Sequence record: NC_010583.1 | Length of the DNA: 64,000 bases | From: Escherichia phage Eps7 | Reading direction: 5' to 3' (one strand) | Shown: piece after piece, positions 2,821-45,984 of the stretch | Layout: each line of letters opens with the position of its first letter | How positions within the stretch are numbered: position 1 is the stretch's first letter | The notes under the pieces: generated by a model | Told to the model about the DNA's origin: nothing | Databases searched by the model: none | What the model saw: the letters and a program-made list of their open reading frames with translations, nothing else | Translations under genes and position numbers: made by a program

Positions 2821-2827
2821 CAATTGT

Positions 2828-2906: not shown

Positions 2907-2934
2907 GAATATTCTTTGTTAACTCACTTTATAA

Positions 2935-3287: not shown

Positions 3288-3295
3288 ATAATAAG

Positions 3296-3576: not shown

Positions 3577-3654
3577 ATTATTATGTTTTGCAGTGCTCTA
3601 AATATAGACACTTCCCACGCGGTGGTTATCTATACCAGCGTCCTGCAAAAATTG

Positions 3655-3731
3655 GCGCGACCGATGGGATTCGAACCCACATTTTCTCCCGTGACAGGGG
3701 AGTACCATTACCAAGCCAGCCCCGATCGCAT
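3655..3731 (-). tRNA. tRNA-Asp (anticodon GUC)
   Basis: T-arm atggg/attcgaa/cccac, acceptor gcgaccg/cgatcgc, perfect anticodon arm ctccc-gtgacag-gggag. Confidence 0.65.
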
Positions 3732-3752
3732 AATTTATTTACTCAGTTTTGA

Positions 3753-3936
3753 GTTTTTCGATAGCTTCCTCAACCTCTTTTAGAGCTTCACGACGGGCAT
3801 TCTGTTGCTGCATATCTTGAATTAATGTCAGTTTTTGTTTTTAATTTCTTGATCCCAAACCTTAATATTATTAATCAGACTATCACGATCAGCTTCTAGT
3901 CGAGCAATTGCACGAGTTGTCATATCTATTTCCTCA
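3753..3936 (-). CDS. hypothetical small coiled-coil protein (about 60 aa, apparent frameshift)
   Basis: Two short adjacent ORFs (MTTRAIARLEADRD... and ...MQQQNARREALKEVEEAIEKLKTE) join across an A5CA5 tract; manual translation only. Confidence 0.25.
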
Positions 3937-4025
3937 GTTATTAATGAAAATGGTATCTGTGACTGAATTCAATATCAGTAATGATAGCTGGTTGGCTACC
4001 GGTTTACTTAACTCTACACAGAATA

Positions 4026-4108
4026 TGGCGGGCCGTGTAGGATTCGAACCTACGTTGTCTTTCGACATGGATTAACAGTCCACCGCCAAACCGCTTGGCT
4101 AACGACCC
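4026..4108 (-). tRNA. tRNA with 13-nt variable arm; anticodon reads GUU (Asn?)
   Basis: T-arm gtagg/attcgaa/cctac perfect, acceptor gggccgt/acgaccc, anticodon arm atgga-ttaacag-tccac, variable hairpin gtc-tttc-gac. Confidence 0.5.
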
Positions 4109-4115
4109 TAAAATT

Positions 4116-4191
4116 TGGACGACCGCATGAGATTCGAACTCACATAAGGAGGTTTTGCAGGCCTCCGCCTAAGCCATTCAGCCAACGGTCG
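4116..4191 (-). tRNA. tRNA-Cys (anticodon GCA; tentative)
   Basis: T-arm atgag/attcgaa/ctcac, acceptor cgaccgc/acggtcg, anticodon arm gaggt-tttgcag-gcctc. Confidence 0.55.
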
Positions 4192-4369
4192 AGTTATCTT
4201 GCTTTTCGAGATTAGTAAACTCTAGATCTTTAGAATGTCCTATAGATCTAGCATAATAGCCATCTCCAGCATCATAGCCTGACTTACCACACTCACACAT
4301 CTTAAACTCTCTATAACGAGTGAAAATATGTTCAGAACCACAACACTTAAATTTAACTAACATTTTCAT
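4178..4369 (-). CDS. Cys-rich small protein (63 aa), putative zinc ribbon
   Basis: KFKCCGSEH...CECGKSG cysteine pattern; 3' end overlaps tRNA by about 14 nt. Confidence 0.4.
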   Translation of the reverse strand: MKMLVKFKCCGSEHIFTRYREFKMCECGKSGYDAGDGYYARSIGHSKDLEFTNLEKQDNSTVG

Positions 4370-4608
4370 TTAACACGCTCCGGTAAATCTTCGAGTTTAT
4401 ATTGAGTAGCCACATTAGCAGCATCTAGTAACAAACCCATATGTTTAAGAATCCTAGTGATAGCTTCGCCTTCTGCTTCTTCTACAAAAGTGCGTAGTTG
4501 AATGAAGTCAATACCACCATCCATACCAGAGAAAATGTTAAGTAAGCGAAGCATTACCAGCTTACGTTCTTTTAATTCTTGTTCTGCCATGTTGCTTCTC
4601 CAGTTCAA
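4366..4608 (-). CDS. hypothetical protein (80 aa)
   Basis: ORF directly downstream of promoter cassette 4625-4672; ATGA overlap with next gene. Confidence 0.45.
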   Translation of the reverse strand: MNWRSNMAEQELKERKLVMLRLLNIFSGMDGGIDFIQLRTFVEEAEGEAITRILKHMGLLLDAANVATQYKLEDLPERVK

Positions 4609-4624
4609 TTTATGTAATAATTAT

Positions 4625-4672
4625 ACAGAACTTTAAGGATTTAAGCAACTACATTTTTCAGAAATTTGATGC
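4625..4672 (-). promoter_or_regulatory. T5-type early promoter cassette
   Basis: RC: -35 GTTGCT, -10 TATAAT, conserved leader. Confidence 0.5.
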
Positions 4673-4928
4673 CTTTCTTTTTCTTCTTATACTTCCACGT
4701 TAATGGATTCTGTCGATTATGAACGCTTGAGATCTTTGTCTCGTCAAATTTCTTCAATACCATGTAATCACACGCCAACTGCTCTAGTGGAATGGTTTCT
4801 CCATCAAAAGCATAAACATAAGGCTGTTGACTAGCACGATAATGATAGACTTTGTTAACTCTACGTTTCAGCGACTTATCCGCGCAGTAAATAAAGAAGT
4901 TTTCAGGATGCATCAGCATCTCCTTCAA
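4641..4928 (-). CDS. hypothetical protein (95 aa)
   Basis: ORF; lysine-rich C-terminus overlaps the downstream promoter cassette. Confidence 0.4.
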   Translation of the reverse strand: MKEMLMHPENFFIYCADKSLKRRVNKVYHYRASQQPYVYAFDGETIPLEQLACDYMVLKKFDETKISSVHNRQNPLTWKYKKKKKGIKFLKNVVA

Positions 4929-5011
4929 ATTGGTGCAACCTGTACGTAACGATCGTACCTCTTCTCCTTTTCAGGGAGACGCTAATCCATCTCAGCTAAA
5001 GTCGCAAATAT

Positions 5012-5088
5012 TGGCAAACCTACTAGGACTCGAACCTAGACCGTACGGTTTTGGAGACCGACATGCTGTCCAGTAACACTCTAGGAAT
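5012..5088 (-). tRNA. tRNA-Trp (anticodon CCA; tentative)
   Basis: T-arm ctagg/actcgaa/cctag perfect, anticodon arm acggt-tttggag-accga; acceptor pairing imperfect. Confidence 0.5.
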
Positions 5089-5096
5089 GCAGAAAT

Positions 5097-5172
5097 TGGC
5101 GTCCTGTGCGGGGATCGAACCCGCAAATCCTACCTTGAAAGGGTAGTGACTTTACCAGTTTGTCTAACAGGA
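5097..5172 (-). tRNA. tRNA-Glu (anticodon UUC)
   Basis: T-arm gcggg/gatcgaa/cccgc, acceptor gtcctgt/acaggac perfect, anticodon arm ctacc-ttgaaag-ggtag perfect. Confidence 0.65.
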
Positions 5173-5180
5173 CTTAAATT

Positions 5181-5271
5181 TGGTGTTGGATGATGGAGTC
5201 GAACCACCCGAGACCCTTCCGAGTCGGCAGATTTACAGTCTGCTTCGCTACCTCTACGATACTAATCCAAC
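5181..5271 (-). tRNA. tRNA-Tyr (anticodon GUA, type II)
   Basis: T-arm gatgg/agtcgaa/ccacc, acceptor gttggat/atccaac perfect, anticodon arm gcaga-tttacag-tctgc perfect, long variable arm. Confidence 0.65.
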
Positions 5272-5416
5272 ATATTTGAATGAAAAATAAGTCGGTTAAA
5301 CTCAAGGTGGAATATTTCAGGAAATCCTGACTTTACCCCTAAAAGCAACTCGCTTAGTTACTTCTCATTCAGATATGTTTTCCAAATTAGATAACTATTA
5401 TATCAAGTTTTGAAGG

Positions 5417-5452
5417 ACTGAGCAAGTCAAATTTTAAAGAACTTGCTCAGTG
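5417..5452 (-). terminator. intrinsic terminator hairpin (11-bp stem)
   Basis: actgagcaagt ... acttgctcagt inverted repeat immediately downstream of the 5462-5737 gene. Confidence 0.45.
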
Positions 5453-5461
5453 CTATATCAG

Positions 5462-5737
5462 TTACTCGAAGCTAGGAGTGACACTCAGTTTGAATGGAAG
5501 CTCGAACACTTCTTCATAATCATCATTGAGCGTAATTACACGACCTTCTAGCTTAGTCATGGTGATTTCGATATCAGCCTCTGCATCAGGAGCCATACCA
5601 GCTTCCACACATTTAGCTTTGACTTCCGGCAGAAGTTCTACATCGTAGAAATAAAGCCATTCAATCTCACCTTCCCAGCCACCCCAGGATTTACAAACAG
5701 CACTTTCAACACCAGTTGCAGTAACACGTTTTGACAT
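5462..5737 (-). CDS. hypothetical protein (91 aa)
   Basis: ORF downstream of promoter cassette 5775-5815. Confidence 0.5.
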   Translation of the reverse strand: MSKRVTATGVESAVCKSWGGWEGEIEWLYFYDVELLPEVKAKCVEAGMAPDAEADIEITMTKLEGRVITLNDDYEEVFELPFKLSVTPSFE

Positions 5738-5774
5738 TCGTTAACTCCTTCATCAATTTATATAACTATTATAG

Positions 5775-5815
5775 CAGAAATCTTAAGTAAAAAGCAAGTA
5801 CATTTTTAAAATTTC
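5775..5815 (-). promoter_or_regulatory. T5-type early promoter cassette
   Basis: RC: -35 CTTGCT, -10 TATAAT, conserved leader. Confidence 0.5.
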
Positions 5816-5827
5816 TGCTTGGAGGAG

Positions 5828-6034
5828 TTAAACTCCTGATTCTTCAGCCAGATCAAGCCCAACCAACGTGATTGCCATAATAGCCGCGCCATGTTCTTTC
5901 TCTCCTAGCTCTTTGGCTTGAGTGAGAATATTTAGGAACTGCTTTTGAAAATCTGCAACTTCTTCTGTCATGCCTGCTTCAGCAATAATTCCTTTCAGCA
6001 TAAAGCGTTGTGCCGTAATTTCAGGATTAGCCAT
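5828..6034 (-). CDS. hypothetical protein (68 aa)
   Basis: ORF. Confidence 0.45.
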   Translation of the reverse strand: MANPEITAQRFMLKGIIAEAGMTEEVADFQKQFLNILTQAKELGEKEHGAAIMAITLVGLDLAEESGV

Positions 6035-6185
6035 TTATTATCTCCAGTTATTTAGAATGTAAGCCAAACTTAGGATCATAGCGATCGTAAGTCGTACCAT
6101 TAGTTGAAGCCTTGATGCTATGAAAACGACAGTACATAAATTTACGTAGTGCTTTCTTAATAGCTTTCATTTTATTTCCTTAATT

Positions 6186-6262
6186 TGGTAGGGGTGGTGG
6201 GATTCGAACCCACAAAACCTGAATTTTAAGTCCAGTACCTATGCCAATTCGATTACACCCCC
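6186..6262 (-). tRNA. tRNA (anticodon reads UAA, Leu-like but type I; uncertain)
   Basis: T-arm gtggg/attcgaa/cccac perfect, acceptor aggggtg/caccccc, anticodon arm ctgaa-ttttaag-tccag. Confidence 0.5.
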
Positions 6263-6280
6263 ATGTAATCTTAGCGAATC

Positions 6281-6603
6281 TCTAAACCCTGGAAATATCG
6301 AGGGAATGGAGAGCCAACTTCAAAATTGATGCCCCAATTAAGTTCAACGAGTTCAGATTTATTAAGATCTAGGCCATTACCTTCAAAGATATAGCCGTAA
6401 ACCGCAGGGAACATAGCTGCTAGATCTTCCATATCGGAATGAGCATTGTGTTCTTCACGGAACTGCTCAACTCTTCAATAGAACTTTTCTAGGAGACTCA
6501 GGTACGATGAACGTTACCACATCAGTAGAATCATCGGTACGATACACCGTAGCTTGGAACAAGCCAACACCTAAAAGGTTTATTGCCGGAGTAGTAAAAA
6601 TAT
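6281..6603 (-). CDS. hypothetical protein (about 107 aa, apparent +1 frameshift near 6470)
   Basis: Two sub-threshold ORFs (MDIFTTPAINLLG... and ...EQFREEHNAHSDMEDLAAMFPAVYGYIFEGNGLDL...) in adjacent frames. Confidence 0.3.
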
Positions 6604-6608
6604 CCATC

Positions 6609-6794
6609 TTAGCCTCGCTCAATGTCTAGACAAATTGCATATTCAGGGTTGATACCAGTACCTTTACATGTAGGACATTCCCATTCTCTACAGAAAATAT
6701 CCCCAGGTTCTGCATCATCCTGCCTACCACTACCATGACAGTCCTTACACCGACATTCTTCTAATGCTTTCTTCATTTCATAGAATCTAGACAT
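6609..6794 (-). CDS. DnaJ-type zinc-finger mini-protein (61 aa)
   Basis: Two CxxCxGxG motifs (CKDCHGSG, CPTCKGTG) plus additional Cys pairs. Confidence 0.45.
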   Translation of the reverse strand: MSRFYEMKKALEECRCKDCHGSGRQDDAEPGDIFCREWECPTCKGTGINPEYAICLDIERG

Positions 6795-6811
6795 ATAGTC
6801 TCCTAGTTAAT

Positions 6812-6889
6812 TGGTGGCTCCCGGAGGATTCGAACCTACCTACCTTTCGCTTATGAGGCGACGGCTCATACCAAATGAGCTTGAGAACC
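6812..6889 (-). tRNA. tRNA with CAU anticodon (Met or Ile-lysidine; tentative)
   Basis: T-arm ggagg/attcgaa/cctac, D-arm gctc...gagc, anticodon arm ttcgc-ttatgag-gcgac. Confidence 0.55.
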
Positions 6890-6894
6890 AAATT

Positions 6895-6988
6895 TGGAGG
6901 AAGATGCCAGATTCGAACTGGCACACCGTGTCTCCACAGCTACTGGCTGTTTAGCAAACAGCTCCCTTACCTTTAGGGTTAATCTTCC
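6895..6988 (-). tRNA. tRNA-Ser (anticodon GCU, type II)
   Basis: T-arm gccag/attcgaa/ctggc perfect, acceptor ggaagat/atcttcc perfect, anticodon arm gctgt-ttagcaa-acagc perfect, long variable arm. Confidence 0.65.
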
Positions 6989-6999
6989 GAATTTATGAA

Positions 7000-7045
7000 T
7001 ATATTATACAGAAAATTTCGGCATTAAGCAAGTGAAATTTTACTG
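7000..7045 (-). promoter_or_regulatory. T5-type early promoter cassette driving tRNAs at 6812-6988
   Basis: RC: -35 CTTGCT, -10 TATAAT, conserved leader. Confidence 0.5.
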
Positions 7046-7336
7046 AACATTGCACTGATATACTTGTTTGATACGTGTCACTGACTTCTTAGTTGGGTTG
7101 ATAGAAGAACCCTGCCACCAACGTGATTCTGAGCTGAGAACAGCCCCAGGAACAGCTTGTTCTTTTGGCAGAACAATATCAAAACACTGTTCACCCATAT
7201 TATCTTTAATGTGCGACCAAATGTCTAGAGTAAATCGTTCTAGCTTATTACAAACTTGAACTTGACAAAGTTCCTGTTGTGGAGCAGCAAATACAGAAGT
7301 AGATACTAGAGTCAATGCAAGTACAATGCGTTTCAT
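7040..7336 (-). CDS. secreted/periplasmic protein with signal peptide (98 aa)
   Basis: MKRIVLALTLVSTSVFA signal peptide then Cys-containing mature part; the ORF-track MREESN prefix is read-through of the conserved leader. Confidence 0.5.
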   Translation of the reverse strand: MKRIVLALTLVSTSVFAAPQQELCQVQVCNKLERFTLDIWSHIKDNMGEQCFDIVLPKEQAVPGAVLSSESRWWQGSSINPTKKSVTRIKQVYQCNVQ

Positions 7337-7362
7337 ATTTGATTCCTCTCTCAAATTTATAA

Positions 7363-7400
7363 ATATATTATACAGAAATTTTCTATATAAGCAAGGTAAA
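7363..7400 (-). promoter_or_regulatory. T5-type early promoter cassette
   Basis: RC: -35 CTTGCT, 17-nt spacer, -10 TATAAT, leader ...TTTGAGAGAGGAATCAA then ATG. Confidence 0.55.
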
Positions 7401-7436
7401 AATTTATGTATATAGCCCTCTAAGCGAGGGCTATAA
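7398..7436 (-). terminator. intrinsic terminator
   Basis: Hairpin tatagccctc-taagc-gagggctata followed on the minus strand by a U-run. Confidence 0.5.
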
Positions 7437-7441
7437 CTACT

Positions 7442-8134
7442 TTATTTGTTAACGCGTACAAAGTATCCTTTATAGGCTCCCATAATAGAGTTACCTAAGA
7501 ATACTAGCCACATTGCTAGGATTGCATAAGATGCACCTGTAGATTGAGCAGTTACAAGCCAAATGTACACAGTACCAATGTTAATAGCAATCCAAATCAG
7601 CCATTGTTCAGCATATTGTTTGACCATAAGCCACATAGCAATCACACTACCTACCGCAGTAAATGCATCCAACATTGGGAATGGATCAGCCGTAGTAGCA
7701 AGGAAACTACCATAACCTAACGTGGCTACTGCTAAAATCCCTAGAGTCAGCAAAGCTTGAGCTTTTGTCAGAACTTTAGTTGGAACATCCGGCAGATTAC
7801 TTGGCTTATTTTTATGCCATAAGTACATTCCATAAAACTGCATAGGAACGTAGTATAGCAGGTTTAGTGCAGCGTTACCATAAAGATCTGCGTTTAAAGC
7901 TGTAATACCATATGTAAGAACACCCACTAAGCCCCAAATATAGTTGGAAACACGTCCTTTTGCAACCAGAATAACACAAACCACATTGGTTATTGCAGTA
8001 GCCCAATCTAGAGCTGTACCATTATAGTTTGCTAAACTAATAAAGGCGACTGCTATAAACAGCCACAGATATTCCAGAGGTTTCCAGTTTTTAAAGTCAT
8101 TTACGAGATAGTTAGTCATATTAAAACTCTCCAA
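7442..8134 (-). CDS. pnuC: nicotinamide riboside transporter PnuC-like membrane protein
   Basis: 230-aa polytopic membrane protein; GMYLWHK and VKQYAEQWLIWIAINI match PnuC signatures GWYAW and RKYVENWLLWVIINV. Confidence 0.65.
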   Translation of the reverse strand: MESFNMTNYLVNDFKNWKPLEYLWLFIAVAFISLANYNGTALDWATAITNVVCVILVAKGRVSNYIWGLVGVLTYGITALNADLYGNAALNLLYYVPMQFYGMYLWHKNKPSNLPDVPTKVLTKAQALLTLGILAVATLGYGSFLATTADPFPMLDAFTAVGSVIAMWLMVKQYAEQWLIWIAINIGTVYIWLVTAQSTGASYAILAMWLVFLGNSIMGAYKGYFVRVNK

Positions 8135-9176
8135 AGATAAAGTGATGAATCAGCCAGTCTACTGCGTTTACTGCTTCGTCCATACGAACTTTGTAGTCCG
8201 GAGAGTCGATGTAAACAGTACGCCCTTCAGGGAACTGATTTGGAAATTCTTTCTTCATCTGCTCGAACAGTTCAGAAGTAATTGAACGATCGGAGTTAAT
8301 ACGTAAACCATCATCTACCCACTTGACAGTAGGCGCTAGAACAATTACTAAATCGTAATGTTCTTCTTTTGCAATTGCTGTAACCACAGGGTTCTTACTA
8401 TGTTCATAAAGTCTGTGGTAGAACTCAGTAATAAAAGCATTTGTATCCACAAACATGATCTTATTTGCAGTACGTTTTGCTTCAAACTCTAGCTCTTTGT
8501 GTCTGAACGCAATTTTACTATAGTCTTCGCTGGTAAGCAGATTTTCGTTACCAACTAGATCAACTTCACAATACGTTCGGCCATATTCTTTTACCCACGA
8601 AGTGTTGTATAGCTTCGCAAGGTATTTTGTTAAAGTAGTCTTTCCTGAGCTTTCAGTCCCAATGATTACAACCTTACGCACGTAATCTTTACGAACTACG
8701 CTAGGAAGAAACTCCCAATACTTCATAAGATCATTACGAATCATTGTAGCTGAGATTGGAACACGAGTCCGATCAGAATCTACAATATAATGACCAAACT
8801 TCGGCAGATATTTCTTATATTCTGCATCATAGTCTAGTTCGCTAGAGAAAATGGTGATCTCAGGCAAATGTCCGTAATTTTCATTAAGGATTCTAGCATA
8901 TTCCGGCCAACCATTCGGATATTCAGGAATATCATCTTCAATAATGTACTCTACCGAAATGTGCTCAATATCCGCGTAAGTTTGTTCTAACCAACGAAGT
9001 CGATTCTTTAACTGTAATACTTCCTGATCACGTGTGTTCTGCTTATCCAGCCAACGATTATCATGACTAACTACAACAATAACTCGTTCACACATAGTTG
9101 CTGCTGTGTTTATTAGGTTAATATGACCACGCGTTAATGGCGCGAACTTACCAATTACTAGACCAGTCTTAATCAT
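8121..9176 (-). CDS. nadR: NadR-like bifunctional NMN adenylyltransferase / ribosylnicotinamide kinase
   Basis: N-terminal nucleotidyltransferase motif GKFAPLTRGH (HxGH), C-terminal P-loop GTESSGKTT; true start MIKTGL (track MREESN prefix is leader). Confidence 0.65.
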   Translation of the reverse strand: MIKTGLVIGKFAPLTRGHINLINTAATMCERVIVVVSHDNRWLDKQNTRDQEVLQLKNRLRWLEQTYADIEHISVEYIIEDDIPEYPNGWPEYARILNENYGHLPEITIFSSELDYDAEYKKYLPKFGHYIVDSDRTRVPISATMIRNDLMKYWEFLPSVVRKDYVRKVVIIGTESSGKTTLTKYLAKLYNTSWVKEYGRTYCEVDLVGNENLLTSEDYSKIAFRHKELEFEAKRTANKIMFVDTNAFITEFYHRLYEHSKNPVVTAIAKEEHYDLVIVLAPTVKWVDDGLRINSDRSITSELFEQMKKEFPNQFPEGRTVYIDSPDYKVRMDEAVNAVDWLIHHFIFGEF

Positions 9177-9202
9177 ATTTGATTCCTCTCTCAAATTTAT
9201 AA

Positions 9203-9250
9203 ATATATTATACAGAGAATTTAGCGTTCAAGCAATCGAATTTTTAAACT
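9203..9250 (-). promoter_or_regulatory. T5-type early promoter cassette (drives nadR-pnuC)
   Basis: RC: -35 ATTGCT, -10 TATAAT, conserved leader with GAGAGAGGAATCAA RBS. Confidence 0.55.
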
Positions 9251-9384
9251 TTTTAGTGGAAAAATCTCAAGGCATTTAGTGGTAGCACGTTGTTGCTACA
9301 ATAATAGTATATGTATTACTAAAGTAAATAAAGAATTAAATACTAAAGACCTTAGTTGAATAACTTATGGGCTTTTCTTTTGCC

Positions 9385-9428
9385 TTAAATACAGAAAAGC
9401 CCGCGCTCTCGGAGGAAACGCGGGCTTG
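9385..9428 (-). terminator. intrinsic terminator (possibly bidirectional)
   Basis: GC-rich hairpin aagcccgcg...cgcgggctt with flanking T/A runs. Confidence 0.5.
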
Positions 9429-9546
9429 GTTCGAAGATTACGTGTAACTATTACTTGTTACGCATATCCATGATCATTTGACCATCGTAGCCAGTACCAA
9501 CAACAGTCTGCGGTACACCACCTTGTATTTTTCAGCACGAAGCATT

Positions 9547-10395
9547 TCAAACTTCCAGCTGCTTCCAACGAATCATTTCAGGAGTAATGGTACGTTGCAG
9601 CGCGGCGTTAGCTTCAGCTTCTTTCTTAGCTGCGTACAGTTTAGCATCTGCGTCACGTTCGTTAGCTACTGCCATGTTTTCACGAGCAGAACGATCAGCT
9701 TCAGCTTGCTTAACTTTCTGCTGTGCTTCTTGTTCAACACGAGCCAATTCAGCTTTAGCGGCGTTAACTTGTTCTTCACGAACTTTTGTGTTTTGTACCT
9801 GTTCCATGATTACAGGTGGCAGAGTAATATCCTGAAGGAATACTTGCTTAACCGTGTAACCATAAGGACGCGCGTACTCTTCTACTTCTTGCTGAATAGC
9901 AGTTTGCAGTTGAGCCTGAATCTTAGCGTCGAACAGATCTTGTGCTTTTGGTACAGACTTACCAAACTCACGAATCGTAGATAGCATCTTCTCTTCAACG
10001 TACTTGTTCAGAGCTTGATCCTGAGTACCTGCGTTAACACGGTTCATAGGAGCTTTAGCACCATCAAACTGCAACATAACGGTAATGTCAACAGTGGACT
10101 TAAACTTATCCTGGCTAGGAACCTGAAGTTTATCCAGTTTCATGGAAATATCTTTCGTACTAAAAGTATCAAAAGAAGCAAATGGGTTAACAATATGGAA
10201 GCCTGGCAATACAGGATTAGGGCTAACTTTACCCAGGAAGGTTTGGGTCTTAACAGTACCATCCTGAACAACTGTGTAGGAATTGAGAGCCAGAATAAGA
10301 GCGCCAAGACCAACTACAGCACCAACACCCCAACGTTTGATAGTGCGAATTACTTTTTGCTCAGAAGTCAGTTCTTTAGTGTTTTTAGTAAACAT
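9547..10395 (-). CDS. SPFH/band-7 (stomatin/prohibitin/HflC-like) domain protein; C-terminus probably extends to about 9451
   Basis: N-terminal TM segment, SPFH-like core, Ala/Glu/Gln-rich coiled-coil tail; two in-frame stops within 30 nt flanking an open alternative frame. Confidence 0.6.
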   Translation of the reverse strand: MFTKNTKELTSEQKVIRTIKRWGVGAVVGLGALILALNSYTVVQDGTVKTQTFLGKVSPNPVLPGFHIVNPFASFDTFSTKDISMKLDKLQVPSQDKFKSTVDITVMLQFDGAKAPMNRVNAGTQDQALNKYVEEKMLSTIREFGKSVPKAQDLFDAKIQAQLQTAIQQEVEEYARPYGYTVKQVFLQDITLPPVIMEQVQNTKVREEQVNAAKAELARVEQEAQQKVKQAEADRSARENMAVANERDADAKLYAAKKEAEANAALQRTITPEMIRWKQLEV

Positions 10396-10406
10396 ATATT
10401 TCCTTA

Positions 10407-10607
10407 TTATTTAGAAGAGTTAGCTACTACAGTTACTTTAGTTGCAGAAATAAACAGGCTAGCATCCACAGCAAATTCAGGAGCTTTGATATCTCCATTA
10501 TGAAATATGACTATACCGGAGACTACTTCAAATGCTAGTGCTGTAACATCGGTGGTATTTACTTGTGAATGTTCACCTACTACTTTTACTATATATCGTG
10601 TTTTCAC
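10407..10607 (-). CDS. NfeD-like short OB-fold protein (66 aa), partner of SPFH protein
   Basis: Beta-rich 66-aa protein (YIVKVVGEHSQV...) immediately upstream of and co-oriented with the SPFH gene. Confidence 0.4.
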   Translation of the reverse strand: MKTRYIVKVVGEHSQVNTTDVTALAFEVVSGIVIFHNGDIKAPEFAVDASLFISATKVTVVANSSK

Positions 10608-10633
10608 TTTATTTTCCTAGCAGTTAATAAAAT

Positions 10634-10709
10634 TGGCCGAGGTGACAGGATTCGAACCTGCATAAAGGAATTTAGAAGACTCCTGCCTATCCCTTAGACT
10701 ACACCCCGT
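10634..10709 (-). tRNA. tRNA-Arg (anticodon UCU; tentative)
   Basis: T-arm acagg/attcgaa/cctgc, acceptor cgaggtg/caccccg, anticodon arm ggaat-ttagaag-actcc. Confidence 0.6.
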
Positions 10710-13297: not shown

Positions 13298-13323
13298 AAT
13301 AGCCTCGTCTCATCAATTTAAAA

Positions 13324-13372
13324 ATATATTATACAGAAAACTAAACTAATTAGCAAATACATTTTTAAATTG
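13324..13372 (-). promoter_or_regulatory. T5-type early promoter cassette
   Basis: RC: -35 TTTGCT, -10 TATAAT, conserved leader. Confidence 0.5.
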
Positions 13373-14612: not shown

Positions 14613-15385
14613 AATTATTTTCCTTTTGTTGTTCTCTCAAATTTATGAATATATTATACAGAATTTGGAGCTGAAAGCAAATCAAATTTTGATTTTTTTC
14701 GATCATGATGGCTACACAATAACTTTCAACTAAAGCATCGAATGCGGGATCATGTTTCACTGGATAGATTCCATAACGAATGGTATCCATCTTTTCCATT
14801 TTAGCTTTTGCCCAGCTAGCACCTTCGGCTTCTAGATCTTTATAGCTATAACCAGCTTGCATCCACTGATTACGGAAAGATCGAACGTTACCTAAGTTCC
14901 AGAATTTCCACGGAACTATTTCTTCATGGGTTCCGGCATGGAACGTATTTGCAGAGTAGATTGTCATATCAAACTCTGGGCCATTGCCGTAATACAGAGC
15001 ATTATCTCCTAGAGACAATTCCATAATGTTCTGAGCCATAGAGAAGGCAGCATAATTAGAGCCTACGTCATTAGTGCAGTGATGCTTACCATCACGGAAG
15101 GCAATCAGTTTAGGATTACGACCATTTAGAGCCTCCATAATATGGAGCGCAGATGGACTGTTTTTTAGCTTGATCCATCCAGAATGCAATAGTAGAGGCA
15201 GTTACCTTAGCACCCGCATTAAGCTGATCTTGAACGTCTAGAGTAACGAATACCAGATCAGGATCTTTATCAATTCCGTGCATCGCTACAAAAGCGAAAG
15301 AAGGCATTGCAATATGAGTAGTACCGCAATTTCCTGGAGTACCTAGAGATTCAATGTCCAGCATACCAAAGGGCTTGAATTTCAT
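14599..15385 (-). CDS. DEDDh-family 3'-5' exonuclease-like protein (frameshifted at T6 tract 15161-15166)
   Basis: Exo I-like LDIESLG, later H-x4-D (HDPAFD); two ORFs join when the A6 run on the coding strand is shortened to A5. Confidence 0.5.
14650..14695 (-). promoter_or_regulatory. T5-type early promoter cassette
   Basis: RC: -35 TTTGCT, -10 TATAAT, conserved leader. Confidence 0.5.
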
Positions 15386-24811: not shown

Positions 24812-24913
24812 TGCGGTTCTCTCTTTTTTGACGTGCTTTTCCCATAAATAACACTCCTATAGTGTACTTCGCTAACAGAGGATCAACAAAAAGATCTTGT
24901 TTATCAACTTACA

Positions 24914-24960
24914 AATATATTATACCAATATATGCGGGAGAAAGCAACTACAATTTTAAA
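24914..24960 (-). promoter_or_regulatory. T5-type early promoter cassette (leftward, for PhoH-like operon)
   Basis: RC: -35 GTTGCT, -10 TATAAT; part of a divergent promoter region. Confidence 0.5.
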
Positions 24961-39014: not shown

Positions 39015-40487
39015 ATGACCTTGTTTAACGTGCAAGCTGTAGTGTTGAAGATGCTTCTCGCTTCTGAACAGAAGCAAATAGCATTGGAAACATTCTCAAA
39101 ACTGCATAAAGATCATTTTAATGACGCTTTCTCCTCAATTTACCAAGCCGTCCAGAATTATTATAAGAAATATAACGCAATGCCGTCCATTGACGCACTG
39201 ATGCTTGAGGCCAATAGGAACGCCCGCCTTTCTCAAGCTCTTGTCGTCTTAGCTAACACTCAAATTCCAGAAGTGAGCATGGAACAGGCGCTTGAAGTCC
39301 TAGAAGCCGAATATACACAGGATCTATTCCTGAAACTTCTAGAAACAGACGTGCTTCAAGATTTAACAATGCTGGATCAGGGAGAAATTCTCAACCGAGT
39401 TGCCTCCCTTCACTTAAAATTAGAAGAGAAAGTAACGAATACTGGAAAGGTATTCAACGCAGACACAATGCGTATTTTCCAGAGAGAAGAAGATACCAAA
39501 CTGAACTTGATCGCTCTTGGTATTTGTAATGAGTTCGACGCTCAAATTGGTTTAGCTCGCACAGAAACGTTACTGCTTGGTGGTTGGCGTGGTACTGGTA
39601 AATCCATTATCTGTTCAAACATACAGGTTCAGCAATATTTGAATGGAGACATTGCTCCATATTTCTCAATTGAGATGAAGGAGCACGAAGTGTTTAGACG
39701 TAATCTGGCTATGTTAGCTGGAGTATCTGCATTAGCAATGCGTAATAACACTCTTGAAGGTGCTGCTCTGTTGAGATTAGCCAGAACTAGGGCTAGAATG
39801 TTTAATGGTGGTGAAGAGCTTTTCGATAACTTCGTTAAGCAATACACTATGGCTAAAATGAGTGACTTCTATGATATGGAAAGTAAACTCCTTGAAGGCT
39901 ATGAGCTTCACACTCCTATGATCATCGTTTACGATCCTGAACTGTCTATTACGACGGTTGACGTAGAATTAAATAAACTAGTTGCTAAATATGGTGATAA
40001 GGTTACTGTAGCTCTTCTAGACTATATTAACCAAACAAGACTTCCAGATTCAAAGACCATTGACATGTATGACTGGAAAGAACAGATGGTTGTTAGTTCA
40101 TCTTTCAAATCTATCTGCCAGAAACATAACGTGGCTGGTGTTGCCCCTTACCAGATTGACCAAGATGGTAGAACGCGTATGTCTAAAGGGATTCTTGATT
40201 CCGCAGATATGGCTGCTAATCTTAACGCTGCAAAAGCTGATAATGGTCAAGGTGCTATTATGTTTGATTTCGTTAAGACTCGTTCCTCTGATAGTGTGAA
40301 GTTTATGCCTAAGATGAACTGGGAAACTCTACGAATGGATAACACTACCAACCTAGCAATGGAAGATATTGCGCAAATGGAAGCTGAGTTCGTTATTCCT
40401 ATTGAAAAGGATAAACCAGCTCAACCTAAACGTGCTAAGAAAGACAAAGCTGAAAATTCAACAGGTGAACAGGCCAGCGATATATGA
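39015..40487 (+). CDS. DnaB-like replicative helicase (RecA-fold ATPase)
   Basis: Walker A-like GGWRGTGKSI, DnaB-like C-terminal fold; start at ATG 39015 with AAGGAGA RBS. Confidence 0.6.
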   Translation: MTLFNVQAVVLKMLLASEQKQIALETFSKLHKDHFNDAFSSIYQAVQNYYKKYNAMPSIDALMLEANRNARLSQALVVLANTQIPEVSMEQALEVLEAEYTQDLFLKLLETDVLQDLTMLDQGEILNRVASLHLKLEEKVTNTGKVFNADTMRIFQREEDTKLNLIALGICNEFDAQIGLARTETLLLGGWRGTGKSIICSNIQVQQYLNGDIAPYFSIEMKEHEVFRRNLAMLAGVSALAMRNNTLEGAALLRLARTRARMFNGGEELFDNFVKQYTMAKMSDFYDMESKLLEGYELHTPMIIVYDPELSITTVDVELNKLVAKYGDKVTVALLDYINQTRLPDSKTIDMYDWKEQMVVSSSFKSICQKHNVAGVAPYQIDQDGRTRMSKGILDSADMAANLNAAKADNGQGAIMFDFVKTRSSDSVKFMPKMNWETLRMDNTTNLAMEDIAQMEAEFVIPIEKDKPAQPKRAKKDKAENSTGEQASDI

Positions 40488-41374
40488 GTAGAATAACAGA
40501 ACTACTTGATCTGAAAGGCATTGAATACAAAGACACAGGTGGGGATATCCTCATCTGTTGTCTCAATCCAGATCATGATGATAAACACCCAAGCTTGCGT
40601 ATTGACCCTGAATCAGGTATTATGCATTGCTTGAGCTGTGGCTTCGGTAGAGGAATACCGAGCATTTACCATTATTTTAATGAGACTCAGTACAGACAGT
40701 CACCAAGATTGTCACAAGTACGTAAAAAGATTTCAGAGATTAGGAATGGATCTACGAATCTTGCAATTCCTGAATCTGCTTACCTTTTCGAAGGTGATTT
40801 CCGAGGTATCAGTTCTAAGACCTTGAAGAAATATTTTGCTTTCCAACATCAAGCAGACTGGGAAGGCAGAATTGTATTCCCAATAACAGATGCTGTTGGA
40901 CGCAATATCCTATTCTTGGGACGTTCTATAAACAGTTCTGCCCCTCCTAAATACTTAGTAAAACCAAAACAAGTTTCACCACCGATTTTCCCTGTACGAT
41001 ATAATACACCAGTTCTTATTCTAGTTGAAGGTATCTTTGATATGTTAAATCTAGAAGATAACGGTGTGGATTATGCTTCTTGCTGCTTTGGTACACATCA
41101 GTTTACATCTGATAACATTGCCGATAAGTTCAGTCCTTACATTATTGCTGGAGTAAGAGTAGTAGTTATCCTATTAGATAATGATGCCTCTGGTAATAAA
41201 GCTGCGCAAGCATTGGCGAAGCTAATTCGTACAAAAACACGTTTAACACCTGTAATTGGTAACTTCCTTCTTCCAGAAGGCAAAGACCCAGGTGATTTAA
41301 ATAAAGAAGAGATCGATATGTTGGCTCAACGTATTGAAATTTTAGTTGCCGAATCGCTCAAAGATTTGGTATAA
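40484..41374 (+). CDS. DNA primase (zinc-finger + TOPRIM)
   Basis: Zn-binding CCLNPDHDDKHPSL...CLSCGFG, TOPRIM-like ILVEGIFDMLNL and VVILLDNDASG. Confidence 0.7.
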   Translation: MSRITELLDLKGIEYKDTGGDILICCLNPDHDDKHPSLRIDPESGIMHCLSCGFGRGIPSIYHYFNETQYRQSPRLSQVRKKISEIRNGSTNLAIPESAYLFEGDFRGISSKTLKKYFAFQHQADWEGRIVFPITDAVGRNILFLGRSINSSAPPKYLVKPKQVSPPIFPVRYNTPVLILVEGIFDMLNLEDNGVDYASCCFGTHQFTSDNIADKFSPYIIAGVRVVVILLDNDASGNKAAQALAKLIRTKTRLTPVIGNFLLPEGKDPGDLNKEEIDMLAQRIEILVAESLKDLV

Positions 41375-41436
41375 TATATTGGTAAGTTAGAGAAGAAACA
41401 CTGAAGTTATACTTACTTACCAAAAGAAGACTAAAT

Positions 41437-44004
41437 TTGAAAATTGCAGTAGTTGATAAAGCTCTAAATAACACTCGTTATGATAAACACTTCCAGCTTT
41501 ATGGTGAGGAAGTTGATGTATTCCATATGTGTAACGAGAAGTTATCTGGCCGTTTGCTGAAAAAGCATATTACAATCGGAACTCCAGATAACCCGTTCGA
41601 TCCGAACGATTACGATTTTGTTGTACTAGTTGGTGCTGAACCTTTCCTGTATTTCGCAGGTAAGAAAGGTATCGGTGATTATACTGGTAAACGTGTAGAG
41701 CATGGCGGCTATGCCAATTGGATTGCAAGTATTAGTCCAGCTCAGTTACACTTTAAACCTGAAATGAAACCAGTTTTCGATGCAACTGTAGAAAGTATTC
41801 ACGATATTATTAATGGTCGTGAGAAGATTGCAAAAGCTGGTGATTATCGTCCTATTACTGATCCAGATGAAGCTGAAGAATACATCAAGATGGTATATAA
41901 CATGGTTATCGGTCCTATCGCATTCGACTCCGAAACCTCAGCTTTGTACGCTCGTGATGGTTATCTGCTTGGTGTTTCTATGTCTCACCAAGAGTACCAG
42001 GGTGTTTATATTGACTCTGACAGCATCACCGAAGTAGCTGTACATTATCTCCAGAAAATTCTGGATAGCAAGAATCATCAGATCGTTTTTCATAACTTGA
42101 AGTTTGATATGCACTTTTATTCCTATCATCTAGGACTTTCCTTTGAGAAAGCACATAAAGAGCGTAGACTTCACGATACCATGTTACAACACTATGTTCT
42201 TGATGAACGTCGTGGTACTCACGGCCTGAAATCTCTGGCTATGAAGTATACTGACATGGGTGATTATGACTTTGAACTGGATAAGTTCAAGGAGGATTAT
42301 TGCAAAGCACATAAGATCAAGAAAGAAGATTTCAGCTATGATCTGATTCCATTTGATATTATGTGGCCTTATGCTGCAAAAGATACCGATGCTACTCTGC
42401 GTCTGCATAACTTCTTCTTACCGAAAATTGAGAAGAATGAAAAGCTTTGCAGTCTATACTATGACGTTCTGATGCCTGGTTGTGTATTCTTGCAACGTGT
42501 TGAAGATCGTGGTGTACCAATTTCTGTTGATCGCTTGAAAGAAGCTCAGTATCAGTTAACTCACAACCTGAACAAGGCTCGTGAAAAGCTGTATACTTAT
42601 CCAGAAGTCGTTCAGCTAGAGAAAGACCAGAACGAAGCATTTAACCCTAACTCTGTTAAGCAGCTCCGTGTTCTTTTATTTGATTATGTTGGTCTGACTC
42701 CAACTGGTAAGCTGACAGATACAGGTGCAGATTCTACAAACGCAGAAGCTCTGAACGAACTGGCTACTCAGCATCCAATTGCTAAGACTCTGCTAGAGAT
42801 TCGTAAGCTGACTAAGCTGATCTCTACTTATGTTGAGAAGATTCTTCTGAGCATTGATGCAGATGGTTGCATTCGTACTGGTTTCCATGAACACATGACT
42901 ACTTCTGGTCGTCTGAGTTCTTCTGGTAAGCTGAACCTGCAACAGTTACCACGTGATGAATCTATTATCAAGGGTTGTGTAGTAGCTCCCCCTGGATATC
43001 GTGTAATCGCATGGGACTTAACAACTGCGGAAGTTTATTACGCTGCTGTACTGTCTGGTGACAGAAACATGCAACAAGTATTTATCAACATGAAGAATGA
43101 GCCAGATAAATATCCTGACTTCCACTCAAACATCGCACACATGGTATTTAAACTGACCTGTGAACCGCGTGATGTTAAGAAGTTGTTCCCAGCTCTGCGT
43201 CAGGCTGCTAAGGCAATTACCTTCGGTATTCTGTACGGTTCTGGCCCAGCTAAAGTAGCTCATTCTGTTAACGAAGCTCTTCTGGAACAGGCCGCTAAGA
43301 CAGGCGAACCGTTTGTTGAATGTACCGTTGCAGATGCGAAGGACTATATCGAAACTTACTTCGGTCAATTCCCTCAGCTTAAGCGTTGGATTGATAAGTG
43401 CCACGATCAGATCAAGAACTTTGGATTCATCTACAGTCACTTTGGTCGTAAGCGTCGTCTGCACAATATCCATTCTGAAGATCGTGGTGTTCAGGGTGAG
43501 GAAATCCGTTCTGGATTTAACGCAATCATTCAGTCTGCATCTTCGGATAGCCTGTTATTAGGTGCTATTGATGCTGATGAAGAAATCCTGTCCCTGGGTC
43601 TAGGAAAAGAGATGAAGATCGTCATGTTGGTTCACGACTCCGTGGTTGCCATTGTACGTGAAGATCTGATTGATCAGTATAATGAGATTCTGATTCGTAA
43701 CATCCAGAAGGATCGTGGTATTAGTATCCCTGGCTGCCCAATCGGTATTGATTCTGATTCTGAGAAAGGTGGTTCTCGTGACTACTCTTGTGGTAAGATG
43801 AAGAAACAGCACCCATCAATCGCTTGTATTGATGATGATGAGTATACTCGTTATGTTAAAGGTGTATTACTCGATGCAGATTTCGAGTATAAGAAGTTAG
43901 CTGCAATGGATAAAGAGCATCCAGACCACAGCAAATACAAGGATGATAAGTTTATTGCTGTATGTAAAGATCTGGATAATGTGAAAAGGATTTTAGGTGC
44001 TTGA
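41437..44004 (+). CDS. DNA polymerase, family A (T5-type, 855 aa) with 3'-5' exonuclease domain
   Basis: Exo motifs (IAFDSETS), Pol motif B-like RQAAKAITFGILYGSG, motif C VHDSVV; N-terminus MKIAVVDKALNN...; apparent TTG start. Confidence 0.9.
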   Translation: MKIAVVDKALNNTRYDKHFQLYGEEVDVFHMCNEKLSGRLLKKHITIGTPDNPFDPNDYDFVVLVGAEPFLYFAGKKGIGDYTGKRVEHGGYANWIASISPAQLHFKPEMKPVFDATVESIHDIINGREKIAKAGDYRPITDPDEAEEYIKMVYNMVIGPIAFDSETSALYARDGYLLGVSMSHQEYQGVYIDSDSITEVAVHYLQKILDSKNHQIVFHNLKFDMHFYSYHLGLSFEKAHKERRLHDTMLQHYVLDERRGTHGLKSLAMKYTDMGDYDFELDKFKEDYCKAHKIKKEDFSYDLIPFDIMWPYAAKDTDATLRLHNFFLPKIEKNEKLCSLYYDVLMPGCVFLQRVEDRGVPISVDRLKEAQYQLTHNLNKAREKLYTYPEVVQLEKDQNEAFNPNSVKQLRVLLFDYVGLTPTGKLTDTGADSTNAEALNELATQHPIAKTLLEIRKLTKLISTYVEKILLSIDADGCIRTGFHEHMTTSGRLSSSGKLNLQQLPRDESIIKGCVVAPPGYRVIAWDLTTAEVYYAAVLSGDRNMQQVFINMKNEPDKYPDFHSNIAHMVFKLTCEPRDVKKLFPALRQAAKAITFGILYGSGPAKVAHSVNEALLEQAAKTGEPFVECTVADAKDYIETYFGQFPQLKRWIDKCHDQIKNFGFIYSHFGRKRRLHNIHSEDRGVQGEEIRSGFNAIIQSASSDSLLLGAIDADEEILSLGLGKEMKIVMLVHDSVVAIVREDLIDQYNEILIRNIQKDRGISIPGCPIGIDSDSEKGGSRDYSCGKMKKQHPSIACIDDDEYTRYVKGVLLDADFEYKKLAAMDKEHPDHSKYKDDKFIAVCKDLDNVKRILGA

Positions 44005-45843: not shown

Positions 45844-45856
45844 TTATTGTATAATA
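45827..45856 (+). promoter_or_regulatory. promoter (TTGGCA, 17 nt, TATAAT) with leader but no obvious ORF
   Basis: Conserved leader ACACATAAATTTGAGAGAGAAAG followed by hairpin gtttcgga...tccgaag and a second promoter. Confidence 0.45.
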
Positions 45857-45927
45857 TACACATAAATTTGAGAGAGAAAGTTTCGGATTGATAAGAAAGT
45901 CCGAAGCAGAAAAAATAAAAATTGTAC

Positions 45928-45957
45928 TTGTCAAATCCTCCCGATTTAATGTATAAT
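45928..45957 (+). promoter_or_regulatory. T5-type promoter (TTGTCA, 18 nt, TATAAT)
   Basis: Leader ATACATAAATTGATGAGAGACAAAA then ATG 45985. Confidence 0.5.
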
Positions 45958-45984
45958 ATATACATAAATTGATGAGAGACAAAA

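What the first reader, a model, noticed from the sequence alone, without database searches (positions are those of the whole stretch)
41437..41439. DNA polymerase appears to start with TTG
The 855-aa polymerase frame (N-terminus MKIAVVDKALNN) begins at a TTG with no upstream in-frame ATG, preceded by an A-rich leader rather than a strong Shine-Dalgarno. A weak non-ATG start would imply translational down-tuning of the polymerase, or coupling to the upstream primase gene.
Basis: seen in the sequence. Interest (0 to 1): 0.25.

Follow-up and report, generated by a model that had tools for sequence, protein, structure and literature searches.

The report
T5-type polymerase's known TTG start
The DNA polymerase gene of this T5-like phage really does begin with TTG, but this is the start already annotated in phage T5 and shared by all its close relatives; the only unusual point is a one-base change, unique to this genome, that weakens the ribosome-binding site in front of it.

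Summary
TTG at 41437-41439 opens an 855-codon family-A polymerase ORF. An in-frame TAA lies 18 codons upstream, with no ATG, GTG or TTG in between.

It is not new. The window is a T5-like (Epseptimavirus-type) phage, and T5 RefSeq and other records annotate the same TTG. All 30 IMG/VR loci and 6 metagenome contigs of the T5 clade carry it. No ATG version exists among 50,697 phage records.

More distant relatives place an ATG at the same spot, before the conserved N-terminus (M)K-I-A-V-V-D-K. That fixes the start site and shows TTG is a derived trait of this lineage.

- **Coupling to primase is not supported.** The gap is 62 nt, and the gene has its own T5 early-class promoter, whose -10 hexamer contains the primase stop codon.
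- **The weak Shine-Dalgarno is private to this genome.** Relatives have GGAG (-8.7 to -9.1 kcal/mol, stronger than about 85% of T5 genes). A G-to-A change at 41427 gives GAAG (-1.8 kcal/mol).
- **Down-tuning by UUG is plausible but untested.**

In passing: the 5' leader is more conserved than the flanking coding DNA and can form a hairpin. Its function is unknown.

The parts
41346..41351 (+). -35 hexamer TTGCCG of the polymerase gene's own promoter
   Evidence: Promoter scan, 10 of 12 matches, 18-nt spacer. T5 RefSeq annotates a promoter at the homologous position, 70987-71061.
41367..41380 (+). Extended -10 (TGgTATAAT, hexamer 41370-41375) plus ATATT discriminator (41376-41380). The primase stop codon TAA (41372-41374) lies inside the hexamer.
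   Evidence: ATATT is reported as the discriminator of all T5 early promoters identified to date (PMC7472727). The core GTATAATATATT recurs at other promoter-like sites in the window.
41380..41422 (+). Conserved 5' leader with a possible hairpin (UGGUAAGU 41380-41387 pairs with ACUUACCA 41415-41422)
   Evidence: The -10-to-SD leader (41370-41422) is 53/53 identical to T5, while the flanks are 88-91% identical. It is 89/82/77% identical to Sugarland/PSTCR5/Erwinia KEY, against 63-76% for the flanks. Fold -9.8 kcal/mol, z -2.3. RNAalifold gives 14 pairs; the one internal covarying pair is C-G to U-A, and one pair varies as U-A/U-G wobble. No Rfam family matches.
41426..41429 (+). Shine-Dalgarno position: GAAG here, GGAG in all relatives. 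The private G-to-A change is at 41427. A 7-nt spacer separates it from the start codon.
   Evidence: Among 439 T5-like phage records none matches the window's 50-mer exactly. Pairing energy is -1.8 kcal/mol here against -8.7 to -9.1 in relatives.
41437..41439 (+). TTG initiation codon of the DNA polymerase gene
41437..44004 (+). DNA polymerase CDS (855 aa, family A, with 3'-5' exonuclease domain). Residues 1-136 are a clade-specific N-terminal extension.
   Evidence: Pfam PF01612 at aa 137-331 and PF00476 at aa 368-760. Best match in the PDB is Klenow fragment, aligned from aa 159. Annotated as DNA polymerase in relatives.
41527..41529 (+). First in-frame ATG (codon 31), a rejected alternative start
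   Evidence: No SD in front of it (-0.7 kcal/mol). Residues 2-30 are conserved as protein across genera.
40484..41374 (+). Upstream primase gene (296 aa); it ends 62 nt before the TTG
   Evidence: Pfam Toprim and DnaG zinc-finger hits. Annotated as primase in relatives.

Best explanation
TTG 41437-41439 is the genuine initiation codon of the T5-type replicative DNA polymerase gene. It is inherited unchanged from the common ancestor of Tequintavirus and Epseptimavirus and is already annotated in phage T5.

The gene is transcribed from its own sigma-70 early-class promoter. That promoter overlaps the end of the primase gene and gives a leader of about 55 nt. In relatives, a strong GGAG Shine-Dalgarno 7 nt upstream places the 30S subunit on the UUG, which is read by initiator tRNA as fMet. 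The region around the start is A/U-rich and weakly structured.

UUG initiates less efficiently than AUG, so the T5 clade combines a strong SD with a sub-optimal start codon. This probably sets a moderate level of polymerase synthesis.

In this genome a private G-to-A substitution turns GGAG into GAAG. If it is real, it should reduce initiation substantially. The loss of pairing is 6.9 kcal/mol, which corresponds to roughly 20-fold in the Salis thermodynamic model; that figure is my own inference from the published beta of about 0.45 (recalled, not looked up here), not a measurement.

Shown here: the position and conservation of the start codon, the promoter and SD elements, and the private SNP. 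Inferred: the transcription start near 41382, any quantitative effect on translation, and any adaptive value of UUG.
For: - The TTG, the ORF and the upstream stop are as described.
- The window is 99.7% identical to Escherichia phage PSa2 and about 92.7% to T5 in this region.
- T5, Bf23, Seafire and PSa2 all annotate the same TTG.
- All 30 T5-clade IMG/VR loci and 6 of 6 metagenome contigs have TTG with GGAG.
- 30-mers with ATG in place of TTG find no exact match among 50,697 phage records. The best hits are the TTG genomes at one mismatch: 226 and 206 records fall in the 95-99% identity band for the two sequence backgrounds.
- A census of 80 loci with 37 distinct sequence contexts shows ATG 1-3 codons before the conserved K[IV]A[LIV][IV][DE] in 27 other contexts. 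TTG occurs only in the T5 clade and in Priunavirus.
- In-frame stops lie 0-17 codons upstream in eight representative lineages.
- SD pairing energies and their rank among 136 T5 CDS.
- The private status of the change at 41427.
- The promoter.
- The start region is less structured than shuffled controls, z = +1.1.
- UUG gives 10-100% of AUG output and yields N-terminal Met (bioRxiv 10.1101/063800).
Against: - No experimental N-terminus could be retrieved. The papers likely to hold it (Leavitt & Ito 1989; Chatterjee et al. 1991; Andraos et al. 2004) are not in the library, so the start rests on comparative evidence.
- Invariance of the TTG across about 440 genomes is weak evidence for selection. 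These form two shallow clades about 90% identical, so common descent alone explains it.
- The strong SD in relatives means net output may not be low at all.
- Whether the change at 41427 is real or an assembly error cannot be decided from one sequence.
Confidence: 0.9

Rival explanations
1. Regulated operator. The unusually conserved leader hairpin next to the SD, together with the UUG start, forms a post-transcriptional control element. It could be an operator for autogenous repression by the polymerase (as for T4/RB69 gp43), a site for another phage protein, or a 5'-terminal hairpin that stabilises the mRNA.
For: The leader is 100% identical between the window and T5 while the flanks are 88-91% identical, and it stays 77-89% identical across genera whose flanks are 63-76% identical. 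The hairpin folds at -9.8 and -12.6 kcal/mol with z of -2.3 and -2.9. The consensus structure has one internal covarying pair and one wobble-compatible variable pair, and it ends 3 nt before the SD. No known RNA family explains it.
Against: The outer stem is invariant, so it gives no covariation support. The hairpin is weak in PSTCR5 and Erwinia KEY (z -0.65 and -1.0) and is absent from the MFE of the longer transcript. The 5' arm GTAAGTT is also the +1 region of another early promoter at 24928-24906, so part of the conservation may reflect promoter function at the DNA level. Two lineages with equally similar polymerases have a different leader (L034, L035). No binding data exist.
Confidence: 0.12
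2. The weak Shine-Dalgarno is an artefact. The A at 41427 is a sequencing or assembly error, or a minority variant, and the phage actually has the family's GGAG.
For: It is the only window-private difference in the roughly 3 kb compared with 28 relatives. It is absent from all 439 T5-like phage records and from contigs that encode a 100% identical polymerase. It hits the core of an otherwise invariant functional motif, where a deleterious change would not be expected to persist.
Against: It is a simple substitution and not a homopolymer-length error. No reads are available to judge it. Single private SNPs are normal between isolates: there are 4-8 differences per 5-7 kb to the nearest relatives.
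Confidence: 0.25
3. Translation actually starts at the first in-frame ATG (41527, codon 31), giving an 825-aa protein, and the TTG is only the mechanical start of the ORF.
For: ATG is the commonest start codon. Pfam domains begin only at residue 137, so the first 30 residues are not needed for a domain call.
Against: Residues 2-30 are conserved as protein, with synonymous-type third-position changes, in lineages down to 35% identity. Those lineages place an ATG plus SD exactly where the TTG sits. There is no SD before 41527 (-0.7 kcal/mol). All curated annotations use the TTG.
Confidence: 0.03
4. Translational coupling. Ribosomes finishing the primase gene re-initiate at the TTG, so no strong SD is needed.
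For: The two genes are on the same strand in one replication cluster. Read-through transcripts from upstream promoters probably exist.
Against: There are 62 nt between stop and start. An independent promoter lies in between. Relatives have a strong SD. Bf23-type phages separate the two genes by an extra 330-bp ORF without altering the pol start region.
Confidence: 0.03
5. The TTG is a sequencing error for ATG.
For: None beyond the prior rarity of TTG starts.
Against: The identical TTG is present in hundreds of independently sequenced genomes, and no ATG variant was found.
Confidence: 0.01

Closest known systems
Phage T5 DNA polymerase gene (pol, T5.122, NC_005859 71097-73664; historical gene D7-8-9)
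   Same: Orthologous gene with the same TTG start, 855 codons, the same promoter position and an identical 53-nt leader.
   Different: T5 has GAGGAG before the TTG; the window has AAGAAG, with a private A at 41427. The coding DNA is about 88-91% identical.
Ordinary bacterial UUG initiation sites (about 3% of E. coli genes)
   Same: UUG read by initiator tRNA, with an SD at a 7-nt spacing in relatives and an unstructured A/U-rich context. The other TTG starts annotated in T5 are the holin T5.041, which has a strong SD, and T5.135, which has a G-rich stretch further upstream.
   Different: Nothing at the family level. In this genome alone the SD is disrupted.
T4/RB69 gene 43 translational operator (autogenous repression of DNA polymerase synthesis; from my own knowledge)
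   Same: A replicative phage polymerase mRNA with a small hairpin directly 5' of the SD.
   Different: The polymerase belongs to a different family (A, not B). There is no sequence similarity and no binding or repression data. The hairpin here has a long internal loop and sits at the very 5' end of the predicted transcript. This is a resemblance only.
infC (IF3) AUU-start autoregulation
   Same: A non-AUG start used to tune expression.
   Different: UUG belongs to the canonical start class (AUG, GUG, UUG) and is not one of the abnormal codons such as AUU. No link to IF3 is indicated.

Membership tests
Genuine SD-led non-AUG (UUG) initiation site | Start codon from the canonical set (AUG/GUG/UUG) opening a conserved ORF, with no better in-frame start upstream | tested here: met
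   TTG 41437; in-frame TAA at 41383; no ATG, GTG or TTG between them.
Genuine SD-led non-AUG (UUG) initiation site | Homologues begin at the same residue | tested here: met
   37 distinct contexts all start 1-3 codons (4 in Priunavirus) before the conserved K[IV]A[LIV][IV][DE]; 27 of them use ATG.
Genuine SD-led non-AUG (UUG) initiation site | Shine-Dalgarno 5-10 nt upstream | tested here: inconclusive
   Met in every relative (GGAG, 7-nt spacer, -8.7 to -9.1 kcal/mol). In the window itself it is degraded to GAAG, -1.8 kcal/mol.
Genuine SD-led non-AUG (UUG) initiation site | Protein N-terminus determined experimentally | not testable with these tools
   The primary T5 polymerase papers are not held. 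There is no T5 polymerase entry in the PDB.
Translationally coupled gene pair | Stop of the upstream gene overlaps or lies within a few nt of the downstream start | tested here: not met
   62-nt gap containing a promoter. By contrast, the ORF after pol does overlap it: GTG at 43997 against the pol stop at 44002-44004.
T5 early-class sigma-70 promoter | -35 of TTGC type, TATAAT -10 (often with an upstream TG), and an ATATT discriminator | tested here: met
   TTGCCG, 18-nt spacer, TGgTATAAT, ATATT. The ATATT rule is from PMC7472727. A promoter is annotated at this place in T5. Activity and the transcription start were not measured.
gp43-type translational operator | Hairpin adjoining the SD that the polymerase binds to repress its own translation | tested here: inconclusive
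   A conserved hairpin ending 3 nt before the SD is predicted. Covariation is minimal, and binding or repression cannot be tested here.
Known structured RNA family (Rfam) | Match to a curated covariance model | tested here: not met
   Only chance-level hits, E of 2.9 or more and far below the gathering scores.

The most novel reading that the evidence does not exclude
The 5' leader of the T5-clade polymerase mRNA is kept identical between T5 and this phage while neighbouring coding DNA has diverged by about 10%, and it is recognisable across three further genera. It may be an undescribed post-transcriptional control element that works together with the sub-optimal UUG start: either an operator or a 5' stabilising hairpin. 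In that reading, this genome's private SD mutation would be a natural down-mutant of that control region.
Probability: 0.12. Interest if true: 0.45.

Novelty: already known. Interest (0 to 1): 0.1.

Why it matters
For annotation, it confirms that gene callers should keep the TTG start and the 855-aa product for this polymerase, and should not truncate it to Met31. Biologically it adds little, because the T5 reference already records the TTG.

Two small points could be followed up. First, a unique SD-disrupting base in an essential replication gene is either an assembly error worth correcting or a natural low-expression allele. Low polymerase expression could matter because T5 polymerase mutations are known to let the phage escape the Borvo defence system (bioRxiv 10.1101/2022.08.27.505566). 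Second, the polymerase leader is more conserved than the genes around it, which hints at regulation not yet described for T5.

Tried and rejected
- **Literature on the experimental N-terminus or start codon of T5 polymerase.** Four full-text searches and direct look-ups of Leavitt & Ito 1989 and Andraos 2004 gave nothing usable. The Sci Adv 2021 paper that uses T5 polymerase does not discuss the start. A search for T5 RNA-seq or TSS data gave only the promoter-class statement in PMC7472727.
- **PDB search for a T5 polymerase structure or construct.** None exists; the best hit is Klenow fragment.
- **Leader motif elsewhere in the window.** GTAAGTTNGAGAAG matches at chance level. BLAST of the leader found only shared promoter cores and one other promoter with the same +1 region; the 3' half has no second copy.
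- **Rfam scan of the leader.** Only chance hits.
- **Folding of the 99-nt 5' end of the predicted transcript (41382-41480).** No significant structure, z = +1.1, so sequestration of the start site is rejected.
- **Identity bands from 30-mer BLAST with TTG queries.** These were confounded by short partial alignments, so exact counts were taken from the ATG-variant queries instead.
- **Upstream mini-ORF in the leader (CTG AAG TTA TAC TTA CTT ACC, in frame with pol).** Substitutions lean towards third positions: 7 of 12 by my own count on the sequences. But the putative start is CTG, TTG or ACG in different genera, and the frame runs into stop codons in some lineages and into pol in others. This is not convincing.
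- **Terminator-like hairpin at 41313-41337.** It lies inside the primase coding region, is weak (3 G-C pairs), and is no more than chance would give.
Full report

Yes. The bases at 41437-41439 are TTG. They open the ORF 41437..44004, which is 855 codons plus a stop. The translation begins KIAVVDKALNN after the initiator residue. Reading the same frame upstream, the nearest stop is TAA at 41383-41385. None of the 17 codons in between is ATG, GTG or TTG. The first in-frame ATG is codon 31, at 41527.

The product is a family-A DNA polymerase. Pfam finds a 3'-5' exonuclease domain at residues 137-331 and a polymerase domain at residues 368-760. The nearest solved structure is Klenow fragment, aligned only from residue 159. 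The first ~135 residues are therefore a clade-specific N-terminal extension.

**2. What is the sequence?**

The window belongs to a T5-like phage. The region 41000-42000 is 99.7% identical to Escherichia phage PSa2 (Epseptimavirus). It is 98-99% identical to many Salmonella epseptimaviruses, and 437 phage records cover at least 80% of it. The 41300-41560 stretch is about 92.7% identical to phage T5 itself.

The upstream ORF (40484..41374) is the primase. It has Toprim and DnaG zinc-finger hits and is annotated as primase in relatives.

**3. Is TTG the true start?**

*Annotations.* The T5 RefSeq record annotates pol at 71097-73664, and base 71097 is the homologous TTG. Bf23, Seafire (a curated record with an annotated RBS, GGAG) and PSa2 do the same.

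*Close relatives.* All 30 Tequintavirus/Epseptimavirus loci recovered from IMG/VR have TTG. All 6 metagenome contigs that match a pattern leaving the start codon free have TTG. Three shown contigs that encode a 100% identical polymerase also have TTG.

*Search for an ATG variant.* Synthetic 30-mers carrying ATG instead of TTG, in both sequence backgrounds, find no exact match among 50,697 phage records. The best hits are full-length with one mismatch, and 226 and 206 records fall in that identity band.

*Distant relatives.* The decisive evidence for the position comes from more distant homologues.
- In Klebsiella phage Sugarland, Erwinia phage KEY and two further Demerecviridae lineages, an ATG preceded by (A)GGAG sits exactly where the TTG is, or one codon before it.
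- In about 25 environmental sequence contexts at 35-58% protein identity, an ATG sits 1-3 codons before the conserved motif, usually preceded by a recognisable SD.
- In every case it is followed by the conserved K-[IV]-A-[LIV]-[IV]-[DE].
- In-frame stops lie 0-17 codons upstream in the eight representative lineages checked.
- Priunavirus (Providencia phage PSTCR5) also uses TTG, three codons further upstream.

TTG is therefore a derived state, fixed in the T5 clade and seen once more elsewhere. The N-terminus itself is ancient.

*Alternative start.* The ATG at codon 31 has no SD (-0.7 kcal/mol) and would remove 30 conserved residues.

**4. How unusual is a TTG start?**

Of the 136 CDS annotated in the first 90 kb of T5, 124 start with ATG, 9 with GTG and 3 with TTG. 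The three are the holin T5.041, T5.135 and pol. In E. coli about 3% of genes use UUG. In reporters the three canonical starts give 10-100% of AUG output and still place Met at the N-terminus (bioRxiv 10.1101/063800). The feature is uncommon but ordinary.

**5. The Shine-Dalgarno**

That is true of this sequence but not of the gene family.

Every relative has GGAG (T5: GAGGAG) with a 7-nt spacer. Pairing with the 16S 3' end is -8.7 kcal/mol for the Epseptimavirus type and -9.1 for T5. That is stronger than 85-88% of the 136 T5 genes.

The window has A instead of G at 41427, giving GAAG at -1.8 kcal/mol, weaker than about 96% of T5 genes. The base is private to this genome:
- None of the 439 T5-like phage records matches the window's 50-mer exactly; 220 fall in the 95-99% identity band, which here means one or two mismatches.
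- 28 of 28 aligned loci have G.
- Contigs encoding the identical protein have G.
- Of the four differences from PSa2 within the ~3 kb covered by those loci, two are shared third-position polymorphisms, one is private to PSa2, and only 41427 is private to the window.

Whether this is a real down-mutation or an assembly error cannot be decided here. If real, a 6.9 kcal/mol loss of pairing predicts roughly a 20-fold lower initiation rate in the Salis thermodynamic model. That figure is my own inference from a recalled parameter (beta about 0.45), not a measurement.

**6. Coupling to primase**

Coupling is not supported. The primase stop TAA (41372-41374) is 62 nt upstream of the TTG and lies inside a -10 hexamer.

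The scan finds TTGCCG (41346-41351), an 18-nt spacer, then TATAAT (41370-41375) with an upstream TG, for 10 of 12 matches. It is followed by ATATT, the discriminator reported for all T5 early promoters identified to date (PMC7472727). T5 RefSeq annotates a promoter at the same place. The core GTATAATATATT recurs at several other promoter-like sites in the window.

In Bf23-type phages a 330-bp ORF is inserted between primase and this promoter. The -10, leader and TTG remain with pol. The polymerase gene thus has its own transcription and initiation signals. By contrast, the ORF after pol starts at GTG 43997 and overlaps the pol stop (44002-44004), which is a typical coupled junction.

**7. The leader (noticed while checking)**

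*Conservation.* From the -10 to the SD, the window and T5 are 53/53 identical, while the flanking primase and pol coding DNA is 88-91% identical. Against Sugarland, PSTCR5 and Erwinia KEY the leader is 89, 82 and 77% identical, while the flanks are 63-76%.

*Structure.* The leader can form a hairpin: UGGUAAGU (41380-41387) pairs with ACUUACCA (41415-41422), with an inner stem.
- The fold is -9.8 kcal/mol with z -2.3 in the window and -12.6 with z -2.9 in Sugarland. It is weaker in the other two lineages.
- RNAalifold gives 14 pairs. One internal pair covaries (C-G to U-A), the terminal pair scores one further both-sides change alongside a broken pair, and one pair varies only as U-A/U-G wobble. 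The rest of the outer stem is invariant and therefore uninformative.

*What limits the interpretation.*
- The hairpin does not appear in the MFE of the longer transcript, and the start region as a whole is less structured than shuffled controls (z +1.1). The UUG is therefore not sequestered.
- No Rfam family matches.
- The 5' arm GTAAGTT is shared with the +1 region of another early promoter at 24928-24906. Part of the constraint may therefore act on DNA, through the initial transcribed region.
- Two lineages with equally similar polymerases carry a different leader.

I regard a regulatory role (operator, or 5' stabilising hairpin) as possible but unproven, at about 0.12.

**8. Mechanism, as far as it is supported**

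- Shown: the start position, the derived and clade-fixed TTG, the promoter and SD elements, and the private SD change.
- Inferred: transcription from about 41382; SD-guided placement of the 30S subunit on UUG, read by initiator tRNA; and moderate output from a strong SD combined with a sub-optimal start codon in relatives, with a further reduction in this genome.
- Not shown: that UUG is selected rather than inherited. The ~440 genomes form two shallow clades, so its invariance is expected from common descent alone.

**9. Comparison with what is known, and verdict**

This is the orthologue of T5 pol with the same, already annotated TTG start, so it is already known. It works like any SD-led UUG site. 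It is not a coupled junction, because the defining overlap feature was tested and not met. It is not an infC-type abnormal start. A resemblance to the T4 gp43 operator is only a lead.

Interest is low (0.1). The residual value is as a check on annotation, a flag on base 41427, and a pointer to the conserved leader.

The experimental N-terminus of T5 polymerase may be in the older literature (Leavitt & Ito 1989; Chatterjee et al. 1991; Andraos et al. 2004). I cite these from memory; they could not be read here. A preprint read here, citing Andraos et al. 2004, confirms that the N-terminal extension is functional: its truncation lowers exonuclease activity. One Borvo-escape mutation also maps to residue 63 (bioRxiv 10.1101/2022.08.27.505566).

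Noticed in passing
window 41427: Private G-to-A substitution in the core of the otherwise invariant GGAG Shine-Dalgarno of pol. It is absent from 439 T5-like phage records, 28 aligned loci and contigs encoding the identical protein. It is either a real SD-down allele or an assembly error.
   Followed up: yes
window 41380-41422 (also L028, L033, L040, L006): The 5' leader of pol is more conserved than the flanking coding DNA: 100% identical to T5 and 77-89% across three other genera. It can form a hairpin ending 3 nt before the SD. No Rfam match; function unknown.
   Followed up: partly
window 41370-41375: The primase stop codon TAA (41372-41374) is embedded in the -10 hexamer TATAAT of the pol promoter.
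   Followed up: yes
L003 702-1031 (Escherichia phage Bf23); also phiLLS, KS_S14, PK8, Stp1, SB9: Some T5-like phages carry an extra 330-bp ORF of unknown function between primase and the pol promoter. The -35 region differs from the window's at that point, while the -10, leader and TTG are unchanged. The Bf23 record labels this promoter 'absent in T5', yet from the -10 hexamer (one base different) through the leader it is the same sequence as in T5.
   Followed up: partly
window 2745-2822 (-): This tRNA-Met(CAU) lies next to tRNA-Pro, as the gene annotated in T5 as initiator tRNA fMet does. It has a U1-U72 mismatch at the top of the acceptor stem. It lacks the three consecutive G-C pairs in the anticodon stem that typify bacterial initiator tRNAs (the stem is CUAGU/GCUAG). 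Whether it affects start-codon selection is unknown.
   Followed up: no
window 183-10708 (-): Cluster of 21 tRNA genes on the minus strand, as in the T5 tRNA region.
   Followed up: no
window 43997-44004: The 165-aa ORF after pol starts with GTG at 43997 and overlaps the pol stop TGA (44002-44004) by 8 nt, a likely translationally coupled junction. The T5 homologue T5.123 is also annotated with GTG.
   Followed up: partly
window 24906-24928 (-), and 2934-2945, 6998-7009, 7362-7373, 9202-9213, 13323-13334, 14648-14659 (-), 45849-45858 and 45951-45961 (+): Recurrent early-promoter core GTATAATATATT. The copy at 24928-24906 shares the +1 sequence GTAAGTT with the pol promoter but has an unrelated leader.
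   Followed up: partly
L034 and L035, about 40 nt upstream of their pol ATG (position 1201): Two Demerecviridae lineages with about 75% identical polymerase N-termini have a different leader that shares the motif AAGCCCTGATAGGCA. This suggests an alternative conserved 5' element for the same gene.
   Followed up: no
NC_005859 20341-20997 (-) and 86055-86318 (-): The only other TTG starts among the 136 T5 CDS checked are the holin (T5.041, strong SD GAGGAGG) and the small ORF T5.135.
   Followed up: no
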